A stretch of DNA of 64,000 bases from Escherichia coli (GTDB lineage: Bacteria > Pseudomonadota > Gammaproteobacteria > Enterobacterales > Enterobacteriaceae). The position numbers were made by a program. The DNA is taken from assembly GCF_003991155.1 (NCBI RefSeq), contig NZ_CP031293.1. One strand, given 5' to 3'. Shown here piece after piece: positions 55,301-61,300 of this stretch; positions within the stretch are counted from its first letter, which is position 1, and each line of letters opens with the position of its first letter.

Positions 55301-58300
55301 CGCACAAATCATTGCCCGCATGATGATCAAATTCCCCGAACACCGCCGTGCTCTTTGGCAAATTGTATTGTTGATGTTTGTCGGGACGTTGTTCTGGGTA
55401 CTGGCACAACAGGGCGGCAGTACCATCAGCTTGTTTATCGATCGCTTTGTGAATCGTCAGGCATTCAATATTGAAGTACCTACAGCACTATTCCAGTCGG
55501 TGAATGCTATTGCGGTGATGCTCGCTGGGGTTGTTCTGGCCTGGCTGGCGTCGCCAGAAAGCCGCGGCAATTCAGCATTGCGCGTCTGGCTGAAGTTTGC
55601 CTTTGGCTTACTGCTGATGGCTTGTGGCTTTATGTTGCTGGCATTTGATGCCCGACATGCAGCGGCTGGCGGTCAAGCGTCAATGGGCGTGATGATATCC
55701 GGGCTGGCGCTAATGGGCTTTGCTGAACTCTTTATTGACCCGGTGGCGATTGCGCAAATCACGCGTCTGAAAATGTCTGGCGTATTAACCGGTATTTATA
55801 TGCTGGCAACAGGCGCGGTCGCCAACTGGCTGGCAGGCGTCGTGGCACAGCAGACGGCAGAGTCGCAAATTAGCGGTATGGCAATTGCCGCTTACCAGCG
55901 ATTCTTTTCTCAGATGGGAGAGTGGACGTTGGCTTGTGTCGCGATCATCGTGGTATTGGCCTTTGCTGCCCGTTTTCTGTTTAGCACGCCGACGAATATG
56001 ATACAGGAGAGCAACGATTAACTGTCGTAAAAACAATTGGTTATGAATAAATTAACTTTCAGTTTATCACACTAGTAAATCGAGATTAATAAGTCATTTA
56101 AACCATTTTGATGGTTATTTATTAGTGATATCAACTTGAGGTAAGCGTTAGTTTCGATAAGATAAACTGAGTTATTAATAGTCGAGGCAGATAATACAGT
56201 GTACCGATCTGTCTCTTTATCTACGCTAAATTGAAAGCTGGATTTAGAGGAACCAAAATGTCTGAACGAGAAACACGGGGAGCCAATGAGGCTATTGATT
56301 TTAACGATGAACTGAGAAATCGCCGCGAAAAACTGGCGGCACTACGTCAGCAAGGTGTGGCGTTTCCCAATGATTTTCGCCGCGACCATACCTCTGACCA
56401 GTTGCACGAAGAGTTTGATGCGAAGGATAACCAGGAACTGGAATCCTTAAACATTGAAGTCTCGGTTGCTGGCCGAATGATGACCCGTCGTATTATGGGG
56501 AAAGCCTCCTTTGTAACGTTGCAGGATGTCGGTGGCCGTATTCAACTGTACGTTGCAAGAGATAGCCTGCCAGAAGGTGTTTATAACGATCAGTTTAAAA
56601 AATGGGACCTCGGCGACATTATCGGTGCCCGCGGTACGCTGTTTAAGACGCAAACGGGTGAGCTTTCCATTCACTGTACTGAGTTACGCCTGCTGACTAA
56701 GGCACTGCGTCCATTGCCGGATAAATTCCATGGCTTACAGGATCAGGAAGTCCGTTATCGTCAACGTTATCTGGACCTCATCGCTAACGATAAATCCCGT
56801 CAAACGTTTGTTGTCCGTTCAAAAATTCTGGCCGCTATCCGTCAGTTCATGGTCGCGCGCGGCTTTATGGAAGTAGAAACCCCGATGATGCAGGTAATTC
56901 CAGGTGGGGCATCTGCTCGCCCGTTTATTACCCATCATAACGCTCTGGATTTAGATATGTACCTGCGTATCGCGCCGGAGCTGTATCTGAAACGTCTGGT
57001 TGTAGGCGGTTTTGAACGGGTATTCGAAATCAACCGTAACTTCCGTAATGAAGGTATTTCTGTTCGTCATAATCCTGAGTTCACGATGATGGAACTCTAC
57101 ATGGCGTATGCGGATTACCACGATTTGATTGAACTGACGGAATCACTGTTCCGCACTCTGGCACAAGAGGTACTGGGTACCACTAAAGTCACTTATGGCG
57201 AGCATGTGTTTGATTTCGGCAAACCGTTTGAAAAACTCACCATGCGCGAAGCAATCAAAAAATATCGTCCAGAAACCGATATGGCCGACCTGGATAATTT
57301 TGATGCTGCTAAAGCATTAGCTGAATCTATCGGAATTACGGTAGAGAAAAGCTGGGGGCTGGGACGTATTGTCACAGAGATCTTTGATGAAGTGGCAGAA
57401 GCACATCTGATTCAGCCAACCTTTATTACGGAATATCCGGCAGAAGTGTCCCCGCTGGCGCGCCGTAATGATGTTAACCCGGAAATCACCGACCGTTTTG
57501 AATTCTTCATCGGTGGTCGTGAAATTGGTAATGGTTTTAGCGAATTAAACGACGCAGAAGATCAGGCTGAACGTTTCCAGGAACAGGTTAACGCTAAAGC
57601 TGCAGGTGACGACGAAGCCATGTTCTATGACGAAGATTACGTGACTGCGCTGGAATATGGTCTGCCGCCAACCGCTGGTCTGGGTATTGGTATCGACCGA
57701 ATGATTATGCTGTTTACTAACAGCCATACTATTCGCGACGTTATTCTCTTCCCGGCGATGCGCCCACAGAAATAAATTTCACTTAAATGAACGAAGCAGT
57801 CAGGCGACTGCTTCGTTCGTCGTTCCGCAAATCCAGTTTTGAGGAGAGACGCTTCGTTTCAAGATAACCAGCGGGTCCACTCAACTACAACTCCTAAAAG
57901 AGAGAAAAAAGTAATGCCACAGGTAAACTCATTGGCCAGGTTATTCCGACCAGGAATGCGCTAAGTAAACGAATATGTGTTTTCTCATGTGAGATAAACC
58001 AGATAATGACAAAGGATATGTTCACACCAATCACATAAAAAATTAATATTTTAGAGAATAGTGCCATTTTTTATGTTCTTCTTATCCTTCCTGGCTACTT
58101 GTAAAACTGACGGAAATAGTCATCAACGGTCATAATGTTGAGGTCAAAATCAATATCCGGTAAGTCTAAGCATTTAAGCCTGATTAAATCTTCGATTTCA
58201 CTTGCGGCTAACGATGTCGTTATTGCGAAGGAATTTTCATTCAATTGTCGTGGTATCCCATATTCATCAGCCACGATAGAGGAGAAATTCATATCATACA

Positions 58301-61300
58301 TCAATGATCTTAACCTTAAGAACACTGAGGAATAAGATGATGGATAATCAAAAGAAACAACATAAGTATTGAACTTGTTTTTACCTTCCATAATATGACT
58401 CCTATCAATATTGAACACTCTGGGGACGCAAAACTTATTAACCCCGATCGATGATTTTCATATAGGAGATATTCTTTTTTTTTTGCTCAGTAAAGGGGAT
58501 GACTTGGGACAAAAAAACGCTCTCTCTGACCATTCTTTGTGCATCCCCCTACCCTTCAGATACTCTCCTGCATCCCCCCGCGGAGAGCATGAAAAATATT
58601 GTGACTCTGTACTCTCCCATCAACTGCGAATATCATCATACTCCCGTGTTTTATCAAATTCGTGTTTCGCAAATGGGCATAGTGGGATAATTTTTCGTTT
58701 TTCCCGACGCATTTTTTCCACGACTTTCGCAACCAGCTGTTTACCAATCCCTTGCCCTTTCAGGCTTTCATCGACATCGGTATGTTCGATAATCGCTAAA
58801 TTCTCTCCGGTCGGCACAAAGACAATTTCAGCGATTTGCTTGCCCTGTTCGTCATTAATGTAAAATTTATTGTGGCCTTCGCGTATTTCCATTTTACCCT
58901 CGCTTATTTATGACGGTATTTCAGCGCGCCGCTCGGGCACGTATCAATCACTTTAACCACAGTGGCAACGTCGACTTCATCCGGCATGATCCACGGCTTT
59001 CGTTTGAGATTAAATAACTTGCCGTTGCCACGTACGCAATTGCCAGAATGCTGACATATCGCAGTATTGAAATAGACATCGATCTTTTCGCCGGTATAAC
59101 AGCGATAACCCCCGTCCAGTAGCGCCTGATCCATGACCTTCCCTCTCTCATCAGTATGGTTTTCACTATAAGCATAGCCCTGGAATCTTCATACAGCACT
59201 GGCAGTTTCCGTTGCCAGACTCTCTTCCCCTATATAGCCAATCATTCTTACTCCCTTTGAATTACCCGCCTCATCAGAGATAATGCTTAAGAAATTTGTC
59301 ACACAAGGAAGCTGATGAGACATTCATTGCCCTACCGCATATTACGCAAACGTCCGATGAAATTGAGTACCACAGTGATCTTAATGGTCAGCGCGGTACT
59401 GTTCTCGGTGCTATTGGTGGTGCATCTGATTTACTTCTCGCAAATCAGTGATATGACGCGAGACGGGCTAGCTAACAAGGCTCTGGCAGTAGCGCGTACC
59501 CTCGCCGACTCGCCGGAAATCCGGCAGGGCTTGCAGAAAAAACCGCAGGAGAGCGGCATCCAGGCCATCGCGGAAGCCGTGCGCAAACGCAACGATCTGC
59601 TATTTATTGTCGTTACCGATATGCAAAGTCTTCGCTACTCGCATCCTGAAGCCCAGCGTATTGGTCAGCCATTTAAAGGTGATGACATCCTTAAAGCGCT
59701 GAATGGCGAAGAAAATGTCGCTATCAATCGCGGTTTTCTGGCGCAGGCTTTACGCGTATTTACCCCCATCTACGATGAAAATCATAAACAAATTGGCGTG
59801 GTGGCGATCGGCCTTGAGTTAAGTCGCGTGACCCAACAGATCAATGACAGTCGCTGGAGCATTATCTGGTCGGTATTATTTGGCATGCTGGTCGGACTGA
59901 TTGGCACCTGCATTCTGGTTAAAGTACTGAAAAAAATCCTTTTCGGCCTGGAACCCTACGAAATCTCCACGCTGTTTGAGCAACGCCAGGCTATGTTGCA
60001 GTCCATCAAAGAAGGCGTCGTTGCCGTGGACGATCGCGGCGAGGTCACGCTGATCAACGATGCCGCACAAGAATTGCTGAATTACCGTAAGTCGCAGGAC
60101 GATGAGAAACTGTCGACGCTAAGCCACTCATGGTCACAGGTGGTAGATGTCTCGGAAGTGTTACGCGACGGTACGCCGCGCCGCGACGAAGAGATTACGA
60201 TTAAAGACCGGCTATTACTGATCAATACCGTTCCGGTGCGCAGTAATGGCGTTATCATCGGTGCCATTTCAACCTTCAGGGACAAAACTGAAGTTCGTAA
60301 ACTGATGCAGCGACTCGACGGTCTGGTCAACTATGCTGATGCACTTCGTGAACGATCCCACGAATTTATGAATAAATTGCATGTGATTCTCGGATTATTG
60401 CATCTGAAGAGTTATAAGCAGTTGGAAGATTACATTCTCAAAACAGCCAATAACTATCAGGAAGAGATTGGCTCTCTGCTGGGTAAGATCAAATCTCCGG
60501 TTATCGCTGGTTTTTTAATCAGCAAGATTAACCGCGCGACCGATTTAGGCCATACGCTGATTTTAAACAGTGAAAGCCTGCTGCCAGACAGCGGCAGTGA
60601 GGACCAGGTCGCGACGCTGATTACCACATTGGGAAATCTGATAGAAAACGCGCTGGAGGCATTAGGACCGGAACCCGGTGGCGAAATTAGCGTAACATTG
60701 CACTACCGTCACGGCTGGCTGCACTGTGAAGTTAACGATGATGGACCGGGGATCGCACCCGACAAAATCGATCACATTTTTGACAAAGGTGTCTCGACAA
60801 AAGGAAGCGAGCGAGGCGTCGGTTTAGCACTTGTCAAACAACAGGTAGAAAATCTCGGCGGCAGCATCGCCGTGGAATCGGAACCCGGGATTTTCACACA
60901 ATTTTTTGTCCAGATACCCTGGGACGGGGAGAGGTCGAACAGATGATCAATGTATTAATTATCGATGACGACGCAATGGTCGCGGAGCTGAATCGCCGAT
61001 ACGTGGCACAAATCCCGGGCTTTCAATGCTGTGGAACGGCTTCGACGCTGGAGAAAGCCAAAGAGATTATTTTCAACAGCGACACGCCTATCGACCTGAT
61101 ATTGCTAGATATCTATATGCAAAAAGAGAACGGGCTCGATTTACTGCCTGTCCTGCATAACGCGCGTTGCAAAAGTGATGTGATTGTCATCTCTTCCGCT
61201 GCCGATGCAGCAACCATTAAAGATTCGCTGCATTACGGTGTTGTGGATTACCTGATCAAACCCTTCCAGGCTTCCCGCTTTGAAGAGGCGCTCACCGGCT

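What the first reader, a model, noticed from the sequence alone, without database searches (positions are those of the whole stretch)
57894..58391. ghoS-ghoT type V toxin-antitoxin pair; the 57-aa toxin gene is invisible to the ORF track
Hand translation of the minus strand downstream of ghoS gives a 57-aa two-TM peptide matching the GhoT membrane toxin, with ghoS (endoribonuclease antitoxin) 27 bp upstream. The pair is convergent with lysU and shares a hairpin terminator region with it. It is a known K-12 system, but a small toxin ORF that a length-filtered annotation would drop.
Basis: partly seen in the sequence, partly recalled or inferred. Interest (0 to 1): 0.45.

Follow-up and report, generated by a model that had tools for sequence, protein, structure and literature searches.

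The report
Known ghoS-ghoT toxin-antitoxin gene pair
This stretch holds the already well-described E. coli ghoS-ghoT toxin-antitoxin pair, with both proteins identical to the K-12 versions, so it is a correct but ordinary identification.

Summary
On the minus strand, 58095..58391 encodes a 98-aa protein and 57894..58067 a 57-aa protein, 27 nt apart. They are convergent with the lysine-tRNA ligase gene lysU, which ends at 57775. The proteins match Pfam GhoS (6e-41) and Toxin_GhoT_OrtT (9e-26). They carry the same RefSeq accessions as in K-12, and GhoS is identical to PDB 2LLZ. The locus is present in about 5,260 of 5,426 complete E. coli genomes. Both frames are intact and under strong purifying selection (pN/pS about 0.03-0.15) in four other Escherichia lineages. 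The published asymmetry in MqsR cleavage sites holds: three GCU in ghoS, none in ghoT. A 19-nt pure A/U run in ghoT fits the reported A/U-rich GhoS target, for which no defined motif is described.

Two side claims need trimming. The 57-aa gene is missed only by a 60-aa ORF filter; RefSeq annotates it in every genome sampled. The 13-bp hairpin at 57789..57818 is real and conserved, but it has no U-tract. Published K-12 data list no RNA 3' end there. They show instead antisense transcription across ghoST that Rho stops upstream of ghoS.

Verdict: already known, low interest.

The parts
58095..58391 (-). ghoS coding sequence (98 aa plus stop): type V antitoxin, an endoribonuclease
   Evidence: ORF. 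Pfam PF11080 GhoS, 6.1e-41, 138.8 bits against a cutoff of 21. 100% identical over residues 1-98 to PDB 2LLZ chain A, YjdK. RefSeq WP_000398619.1 in K-12 and in the 100%-identical strain. The mechanical ORF extends to GTG 58418 (107 aa), but RefSeq and the PDB construct use ATG 58391.
58399..58403 (-). AGGAG Shine-Dalgarno sequence for ghoS, 7 nt upstream of the ATG at 58391
   Evidence: Read from the sequence. The block TTGATAGGAGTCATATT is invariant in all 9 loci.
58169..58271 (-). Span holding the three 5'-GCU sites of ghoS (gene nt 121, 213 and 221; window 58269-58271, 58177-58179, 58169-58171). These are the published preferred MqsR cleavage sites.
   Evidence: Counted, at the same positions as in K-12. 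The literature states that ghoS has three GCU sites and ghoT none (PMC4803016).
58068..58094 (-). 27-nt ghoS-ghoT spacer (CCAGGAAGGATAAGAAGAACATAAAAA). It is purine-rich, with AGGA motifs 17-21 nt and AAGAAG 10 nt before the ghoT ATG, and holds no terminator.
   Evidence: identical in K-12. The terminator scan finds none. The spacer is 26-28 nt in other Escherichia species.
57894..58067 (-). ghoT coding sequence (57 aa plus stop): small membrane toxin with two hydrophobic segments, and no GCU site
   Evidence: ORF. Pfam PF10753 Toxin_GhoT_OrtT, 8.9e-26, 90.4 bits against a cutoff of 22.1. RefSeq WP_001173343.1. Hydropathy shows two hydrophobic segments split by the polar loop SHEKTHIR. Phe38 is present. 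The frame is 57 aa in all 9 loci, with pN 0-0.015 against pS 0.08-0.18.
58035..58053 (-). 19-nt pure A/U run in ghoT mRNA (nt 15-33, UAAAAUAUUAAUUUUUUAU), the longest in the operon and a candidate GhoS target region
   Evidence: Identical in 8 of 9 loci; the ninth (L008) has C and G in place of U and A at two positions near the 5' end of the run. GhoS is reported to cut ghoT mRNA in A/U-rich regions (PMC3997798). The assignment of this run as the site is inference.
57789..57818 (.). Conserved perfect hairpin (13-bp stem, 4-nt loop) in the 118-nt spacer between the ghoT stop and the lysU stop. It starts 75 nt after the ghoT stop and 13 nt after the lysU stop, and extends to 15 bp (57787..57820) in lysU sense.
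   Evidence: Folding. The stem is invariant in 9 loci except the second pair from the loop, where A becomes G in L007-L010. That gives a U-G wobble in ghoT sense and a C-A mismatch in lysU sense. No U-tract follows, and the scan finds no terminator.
56258..57775 (+). Convergent neighbour: lysine-tRNA ligase gene at the K-12 lysU position (505 aa)
   Evidence: ORF, with ATG at 56258. RefSeq annotates a 1518-nt lysine-tRNA ligase here, between dtpC and ghoT, under the generic label 'lysS'. That this locus is lysU in K-12 is established knowledge.
58489..58550 (-). Long imperfect hairpin (GGGGGAUGC...GUCAUCCCC) followed by UUUACU in the yjdJ-ghoS intergenic region. A published K-12 RNA 3' end maps to its 3' edge (window 58489).
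   Evidence: Folding. The Term-seq 3' end at MG1655 4352488(+), 96 nt upstream of ghoS, was seen in two conditions (PMC7815308 supplementary files 1 and 3). It was mapped to the window.

Best explanation
This is the chromosomal ghoS-ghoT (yjdK-yjdO) type V toxin-antitoxin operon of E. coli, with both proteins identical to those of K-12.

The published mechanism is as follows, and none of it was tested here. The two genes are transcribed together. GhoT is a 57-aa inner-membrane peptide with two helices that damages the membrane and lowers ATP when made. GhoS is a stable, Cas2-like endoribonuclease. It does not bind the toxin but cuts the ghoT part of the mRNA in A/U-rich regions, so little toxin is made. 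Under stress the type II toxin MqsR, which cuts at GCU, destroys the ghoS part of the transcript (three GCU sites) and spares ghoT (none). This tips the balance towards toxin.

Shown here: gene identity, anatomy, conservation, the GCU asymmetry and the A/U tract. Inferred from the literature: co-transcription, RNase activity, toxicity and the MqsR cascade.
For: Pfam GhoS 6.1e-41 and Toxin_GhoT_OrtT 8.9e-26, both far above the curated cutoffs. GhoS is 100% identical to PDB 2LLZ. The RefSeq product names and protein accessions match K-12, and the neighbours dcuS, yjdI, yjdJ and dtpC are the same.

The locus covers at least 80% of the query in 5,264 of 5,426 (845-nt query) and 5,257 of 5,426 (ghoT plus spacer) complete E. 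coli genomes, nearly all at 95% identity or more. All 7 coding differences from K-12 are synonymous. In four other Escherichia lineages both frames are intact, ghoT is always 57 aa, and pN/pS is roughly 0.03-0.15.

There are three GCU sites in ghoS and none in ghoT in this window, and none in ghoT in any of the 9 loci (ghoS has 2-4). OrtT orthologues have 2-5. The chance of zero GCU in ghoT is 0.024 under synonymous recoding and 0.10 under mononucleotide shuffling. A 19-nt A/U run in ghoT is conserved.

Two hydrophobic segments and Phe38, whose F38R change abolishes toxicity (PMC4344625), are present. Mechanism statements come from PMC4010927, PMC4344625, PMC4905990, PMC3997798 and PMC4803016.
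Against: Nothing in the sequence contradicts the identification. The limits concern the mechanism.

The two primary papers (PMC3514572, PMC3620836) are not held in the library, so the exact cleavage sites could not be read. The GCU avoidance in ghoT is only modestly significant, at P 0.02-0.10. The toxicity and RNase data read here all trace to the discovering laboratories (Wang et al. 2012 and later papers from the same groups) and rest on plasmid overexpression. My recollection that independent replication is lacking is from general knowledge, not from a tool result.

A CRISPRi screen reported a stronger fitness cost for ghoS than for ghoT knock-down under gentamicin (PMC12282077). CRISPRi on ghoS should be polar on ghoT, so that result is ambiguous. 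NCBIfam and PADLOC hold no model for either protein.
Confidence: 0.93

Rival explanations
1. The genes are ghoS and ghoT, but at native expression they are not a toxin-antitoxin switch. GhoT would be an ordinary small membrane protein of the GhoT/OrtT family. GhoS would be a low-specificity RNase that tunes a small set of mRNAs. The 'toxicity' would be an overexpression effect.
For: GhoS overproduction lowers about 20 other transcripts for purine and pyrimidine synthesis and transport, and its recognition sequence is described as 'rather undefined' (PMC3997798; PMC4010927). The homologue OrtT exists alone, with no ghoS neighbour, in Salmonella and E. fergusonii. Both genes are under ordinary strong purifying selection at a fixed chromosomal site in nearly all E. 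coli, unlike typical mobile toxin-antitoxin modules. There are no PADLOC defence hits.
Against: GhoT production causes lysis and ghost cells, and loss of the start codon or an F38R change removes the effect in the OrtT/GhoT family (PMC4344625). ghoS and ghoT are always adjacent at 26-28 nt in the 9 loci. ghoT specifically lacks GCU while its orphan homologues do not.
Confidence: 0.05
2. The 57-aa frame is a chance ORF in the 3' untranslated region of ghoS and is not translated.
For: It is short, lies below a 60-aa threshold, and has only a distant or weak Shine-Dalgarno sequence, with AGGA 17 nt or more from the ATG.
Against: Pfam E-value 8.9e-26. The length is 57 aa in all 9 loci, and substitutions are overwhelmingly synonymous: 3-7 synonymous against 0-2 nonsynonymous. 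Homologues of the same length occur at an unrelated locus in other genera.
Confidence: 0.01

Closest known systems
E. coli K-12 GhoT/GhoS (YjdO/YjdK) type V toxin-antitoxin system (Wang et al. 2012, Nat Chem Biol 8:855)
   Same: Both proteins are 100% identical. The 27-nt spacer is identical. The three GCU positions in ghoS and none in ghoT are the same. The neighbours yjdI, yjdJ, lysU and dtpC are the same, and so is the downstream hairpin stem.
   Different: There are only silent differences: 4 synonymous changes in ghoS and 3 in ghoT. The upstream A-run is A10 instead of A8. A few substitutions lie in the ghoT-lysU spacer, including AUUU instead of AUUA after the hairpin.
OrtT (YdcX), orphan toxin of the GhoT/OrtT family (PF10753)
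   Same: Same Pfam family, same 57-aa length and two hydrophobic segments, with Phe38 conserved.
   Different: OrtT orthologues are 38-41 of 57 residues identical to GhoT. They sit at a different locus (aldehyde dehydrogenase - yncL - ortT) with no ghoS gene beside them, and they carry 2-5 GCU sites. The window gene is GhoT, not OrtT.
Type I toxin-antitoxin systems with small hydrophobic toxins (e.g. hok/sok)
   Same: A small hydrophobic membrane-damaging peptide whose synthesis is blocked at the mRNA level (PMC3827094).
   Different: In type I systems the antitoxin is an antisense RNA. Here it is a protein RNase encoded upstream in the same operon. Antisense transcription across ghoST does exist in K-12 data, but no role for it is known.

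Membership tests
GhoT/OrtT toxin family (Pfam PF10753) | Sequence matches the family profile above the curated threshold | tested here: met
   90.4 bits against a cutoff of 22.1, E 8.9e-26, profile positions 1-55 of 55.
GhoT/OrtT toxin family (Pfam PF10753) | Peptide of about 57 aa with two hydrophobic transmembrane segments and the conserved Phe38 needed for toxicity | tested here: met
   57 aa. Hydropathy peaks cover residues about 1-25 and 34-57, with the polar loop SHEKTHIR between them. F38 is present. The feature definition comes from PMC4344625.
GhoT/OrtT toxin family (Pfam PF10753) | Membrane damage, ATP loss and growth arrest when produced | not testable with these tools
   Needs experiment. 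It follows by identity with the K-12 protein (WP_001173343.1).
GhoS endoribonuclease (Pfam PF11080) | Sequence matches the family profile, and the protein is identical to the solved YjdK/GhoS structure | tested here: met
   138.8 bits against a cutoff of 21. 98 of 98 residues are identical to PDB 2LLZ chain A.
GhoS endoribonuclease (Pfam PF11080) | Cleaves ghoT mRNA in A/U-rich regions | not testable with these tools
   The activity needs experiment. The substrate feature is present: a 19-nt pure A/U run at ghoT nt 15-33, identical to K-12. No defined motif exists in the literature read.
Type V toxin-antitoxin system (GhoST) | The antitoxin gene lies immediately upstream of the toxin gene on the same strand, with no terminator between them (one operon) | tested here: met
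   27-nt spacer on the same strand, and no terminator-like site. Co-transcription itself was not tested here. The literature refers to a ghoST transcript.
Type V toxin-antitoxin system (GhoST) | MqsR (GCU) sites present in ghoS and absent from ghoT | tested here: met
   Three sites (nt 121, 213, 221) against none. The same pattern holds in 9 loci. It matches PMC4803016. Significance is modest, at P 0.024-0.10.
Type V toxin-antitoxin system (GhoST) | The partner system MqsR/MqsA is present in the same genome | not tested
   mqsRA lies far from this locus in K-12 and was not sought in the window or in the matching genome.
Intrinsic (Rho-independent) bidirectional terminator | A G+C-rich hairpin followed directly by a U-tract on the transcribed strand, or on both strands | tested here: not met
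   The hairpin is present, but the tails are AUUUAAGU in ghoT sense and CGUUCCGC in lysU sense. The scan finds 0 terminators. No Term-seq 3' end is listed at this place in K-12.

The most novel reading that the evidence does not exclude
Transcription in the lysU direction is not stopped at the U-tract-less hairpin. It runs antisense through ghoT and ghoS until Rho terminates it upstream of ghoS, as the K-12 bicyclomycin data suggest. This antisense transcription, which would rise when lysU is induced, could add an undescribed layer of control over the toxin mRNA. It might act by transcriptional interference or by RNA pairing, in the manner of a type I antitoxin. The hairpin would then serve mainly as a 3' stabiliser of the ghoST mRNA.
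Probability: 0.1. Interest if true: 0.4.

Novelty: already known. Interest (0 to 1): 0.08.

Why it matters
It matters little beyond correct annotation. The window carries the textbook example, and founding member, of type V toxin-antitoxin systems, unchanged at the protein level. The practical lesson is that a 60-aa ORF cut-off hides a real and well-studied 57-aa gene, which standard pipelines nevertheless annotate. The only loose end worth a specialist's attention is the published but apparently undiscussed antisense transcription across ghoST, terminated by Rho, together with the conserved hairpin that lacks a U-tract.

Tried and rejected
1. The primary papers (PMC3514572, PMC3620836) are not held. 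Several reviews were searched for an exact GhoS cleavage sequence, and only 'A/U-rich regions' was found.

2. NCBIfam and PADLOC scans gave no hits for either protein.

3. An Rfam scan of 57000-59400 returned one hit, a eukaryotic lncRNA model at E 0.5, far below its threshold.

4. The promoter scan found 4 sites against 3.2 expected from shuffles, which is uninformative. The ghoST promoter was not located.

5. The genome-contig search with GhoS returned only Escherichia loci, plus a 306-nt contig labelled Bacillus sanguinis that is 100% identical to E. coli and is taken to be contamination.

6. GhoT homologues at 65-74% identity in Salmonella and E. fergusonii turned out to lie at the ortT locus with no ghoS beside them. 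They were not used as GhoT orthologues.

7. The TERMITe Term-seq paper's supplements have no entry for these genes.

8. The antisense 66-aa ORF (58135..58335, plus strand) and the 107-aa GTG-extended ghoS frame were considered and rejected. The reasons are the Pfam hits, the purifying selection on the minus-strand frames, and the AGGAG sequence before ATG 58391.
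Full report
**Observation**

The minus strand of the window carries two ORFs. One is 98 aa, with ATG at 58391 and a stop codon ending at 58095. The other is 57 aa, with ATG at 58067 and a stop codon ending at 57894. A 27-nt spacer, CCAGGAAGGATAAGAAGAACATAAAAA, separates them.

The mechanical ORF list extends the first frame to a GTG at 58418 (107 aa). An AGGAG sequence lies 7 nt before ATG 58391, and both RefSeq and the PDB construct use the 98-aa form. On the plus strand a lysine-tRNA ligase gene (56258..57775) ends 118 nt from the ghoT stop, so the two are convergent. With the default 60-aa threshold the 57-aa ORF is not listed. With a 30-aa threshold it is.

**Identity**

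- The 57-aa protein matches Pfam PF10753 (Toxin_GhoT_OrtT) at 8.9e-26.
- The 98-aa protein matches PF11080 (GhoS) at 6.1e-41.
- The 98-aa protein is identical over all 98 residues to PDB 2LLZ, 'Uncharacterized protein YjdK'.
- A megablast against 5,426 complete E. coli genomes finds the 845-nt region at 80% coverage or more in 5,264 genomes. One strain, 2016C-3878, is 100% identical, and K-12 is 97.0% identical.
- In both K-12 HMS174 and the identical strain, RefSeq annotates 'type V toxin-antitoxin system endoribonuclease antitoxin GhoS' (WP_000398619.1) and 'type V toxin-antitoxin system toxin GhoT' (WP_001173343.1). They lie between yjdJ and the lysine-tRNA ligase gene, next to dtpC. Both proteins are therefore identical to those of K-12.
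- NCBI's pipeline labels the ligase gene 'lysS'. By position this is the K-12 lysU locus (established knowledge).

**Is the small frame conserved?**

Against K-12 there are 4 nucleotide differences in ghoS and 3 in ghoT, all synonymous. A search with ghoT plus the downstream spacer finds it at 80% coverage or more in 5,257 of 5,426 genomes. In all 59 full-length rows sampled evenly down the ranking, it is annotated as ghoT. Two hits with a 1-nt length difference have the indel in the spacer, not in the gene, and carry the same protein accessions.

A scan of one genome per species returned four further Escherichia lineages: E. whittamii, two unnamed Escherichia species, and a divergent record labelled E. 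coli. In all four, ghoS is 98 aa, ghoT is 57 aa and the spacer is 26-28 nt. Against the window:

| Gene | Synonymous divergence (pS) | Nonsynonymous divergence (pN) |
|---|---|---|
| ghoS | 0.20-0.29 | 0.009-0.021 |
| ghoT | 0.10-0.18 | 0.008-0.015 |

The frame is real and under purifying selection.

**Features that bear on the published mechanism**

GhoT has two hydrophobic segments split by the polar loop SHEKTHIR. It keeps Phe38, the residue whose change to Arg abolishes toxicity in this family (PMC4344625).

The MqsR cascade model rests on GCU sites. The literature states that ghoS has three and ghoT none (PMC4803016; PMC4905990). I count three in ghoS (nt 121, 213, 221) and none in ghoT or the spacer. 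ghoT has none in any of the 9 loci, while ghoS has 2-4. Orphan OrtT orthologues from Salmonella and E. fergusonii have 2-5 GCU sites and no ghoS neighbour. So the absence of GCU is specific to ghoT and is not a trait of the whole family. Its statistical weight is modest. The chance of zero sites is 0.024 under synonymous recoding with the window's codon usage, and 0.10 under mononucleotide shuffling of this A+T-rich gene.

The 'GhoS cleavage motif' could not be checked as stated. The primary papers are not in the library. The best available description is cleavage 'in A/U rich regions' with a 'rather undefined recognition sequence' (PMC3997798). The longest pure A/U run of the operon is 19 nt, UAAAAUAUUAAUUUUUUAU. 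It lies at ghoT nt 15-33 (window 58035..58053) and is identical in 8 of 9 loci. Only nt 108, 142 and 144 of ghoT differ from K-12, so any site mapped elsewhere in K-12 is unchanged here.

**The hairpin**

A perfect 13-bp stem with a 4-nt loop lies at 57789..57818. It starts 75 nt after the ghoT stop and 13 nt after the lysU stop. It is much more stable than shuffled sequence, with z -4.7 in ghoT sense and -6.5 in lysU sense. Its stem is invariant in the 9 loci except one position next to the loop. There, A becomes G in the four non-coli lineages, which gives a U-G pair in ghoT sense and a C-A mismatch in lysU sense. This is a single event and weak evidence.

No U-tract follows the hairpin on either strand, and the terminator scan finds none in 57600..58900. 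In the K-12 Term-seq study of Adams et al. 2021 (PMC7815308), the uncut table of curated 3' ends has no entry naming ghoT or lysU. It also lists no 3' end between 4352488 and about 4362550.

The same study lists a highly significant Rho termination region at MG1655 4352446 on the minus strand. That strand is lysU sense, antisense to ghoST. Read coverage in the 800-nt windows was:

| Condition | Upstream window | Downstream window |
|---|---|---|
| Without bicyclomycin | 277 | 31 |
| With bicyclomycin | 487 | 598 |

The Rho score is 10.97 and the P-value 3.5e-50. The coordinate maps to about window 58531 on the plus strand, in the yjdJ-ghoS intergenic region. The plus strand there is C-rich, with 60 C against 38 G. 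The upstream 800-nt window spans the last 46 nt of lysU, the spacer, ghoT and ghoS.

So antisense transcripts do cover ghoST in K-12, and Rho ends them only beyond ghoS. Either the hairpin lets lysU transcription through, or antisense promoters lie inside ghoST. The window counts cannot tell these apart. 'Shared hairpin' is therefore confirmed, and 'terminator' is not.

**Surroundings**

The two genes form an A+T-rich island, with G+C 0.35 against about 0.45-0.50 in the flanks and 0.504 for the whole window. This fits an acquired module.

In the 231-nt yjdJ-ghoS intergenic region, a long imperfect hairpin is followed by UUUACU. It ends where K-12 Term-seq places a 3' end 96 nt upstream of ghoS, which maps to window 58489. 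This is most simply the end of the yjdI-yjdJ transcript. If so, the ghoST promoter would lie in the last ~100 nt before ghoS. I could not locate it, because the promoter scan was at chance level. Rfam has nothing here.

**Mechanism and rivals**

The best explanation is the published type V system. GhoS is a stable Cas2-like RNase that cuts the ghoT part of the shared transcript. GhoT is a membrane-damaging peptide. MqsR removes the ghoS part under stress. What I have shown is identity, anatomy, conservation and the two sequence features the model needs. The activities themselves are taken from the literature.

The main rival is that the pair is not a true toxin-antitoxin switch at native expression levels. 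It cannot be excluded with sequence tools. It rests on the loose specificity reported for GhoS, and on the reliance on overexpression. A chance ORF is excluded.

**Comparison and novelty**

This is the founding type V system itself, not a relative or a variant. It is distinct from the orphan paralogue OrtT, which has a different locus, 38-41 of 57 identical residues, GCU sites, and no ghoS neighbour. The finding is correct and already known, so interest is low.

The most novel reading not excluded is that Rho-terminated antisense transcription from the lysU side modulates ghoST. I give that about 10%.

Noticed in passing
window ~58531 (+ strand); MG1655 4352446 (-): Published K-12 DirectRNA-seq with and without bicyclomycin lists a strong Rho termination region (score 10.97, P 3.5e-50) for lysU-sense transcription in the yjdJ-ghoS intergenic region. 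Antisense transcripts therefore cover ghoT and ghoS. The plus strand here is C-rich (60 C against 38 G).
   Followed up: partly
window 58489..58550 (- strand): A long imperfect hairpin followed by UUUACU. A K-12 Term-seq 3' end (MG1655 4352488, 96 nt upstream of ghoS, seen in two conditions) maps to window 58489. It is probably the end of the yjdI-yjdJ transcript, or a 3' end in a ghoS leader.
   Followed up: partly
window 57900..58500: ghoS-ghoT form an A+T-rich island, with G+C about 0.35 against 0.45-0.50 in the flanks and 0.504 for the window. This suggests horizontal acquisition. ghoS relatives were found only in Escherichia in the species-representative genome scan.
   Followed up: partly
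window 58475..58484 (- strand): A homopolymer A-run upstream of ghoS varies in length between strains: A10 here, A8 in K-12. One Escherichia lineage (L007) has an insertion of about 56 nt nearer to ghoS.
   Followed up: no
L006:1125-1578 (E. coli strain 3908, NZ_CM128561.1): A second, divergent ghoS copy (57 of 98 residues identical, WP_097514525.1) lies next to potE. It is followed by an N-terminally truncated GhoT/OrtT pseudogene. This appears to be a decayed paralogous type V locus. In this genome it is the best match to ghoT, so the canonical locus seems to be missing.
   Followed up: partly
L003:4001-5555 (E. coli strain KFu022, NZ_CP091677.1): In this strain an IS1 element directly follows yjdJ, and ghoS, ghoT, lysU and the genes beyond are missing up to a tRNA-Phe. 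This is one example of the roughly 2-3% of complete genomes that lack the locus.
   Followed up: partly
L011 (NZ_BOQB01000692.1, labelled Bacillus sanguinis): A 306-nt contig encodes GhoS residues 44-98 at 100% identity to E. coli. It is almost certainly E. coli contamination in that assembly.
   Followed up: no
window 56258..57775 (+): RefSeq's pipeline names the lysine-tRNA ligase gene at the K-12 lysU position 'lysS' in every record examined. This generic label could mislead.
   Followed up: no
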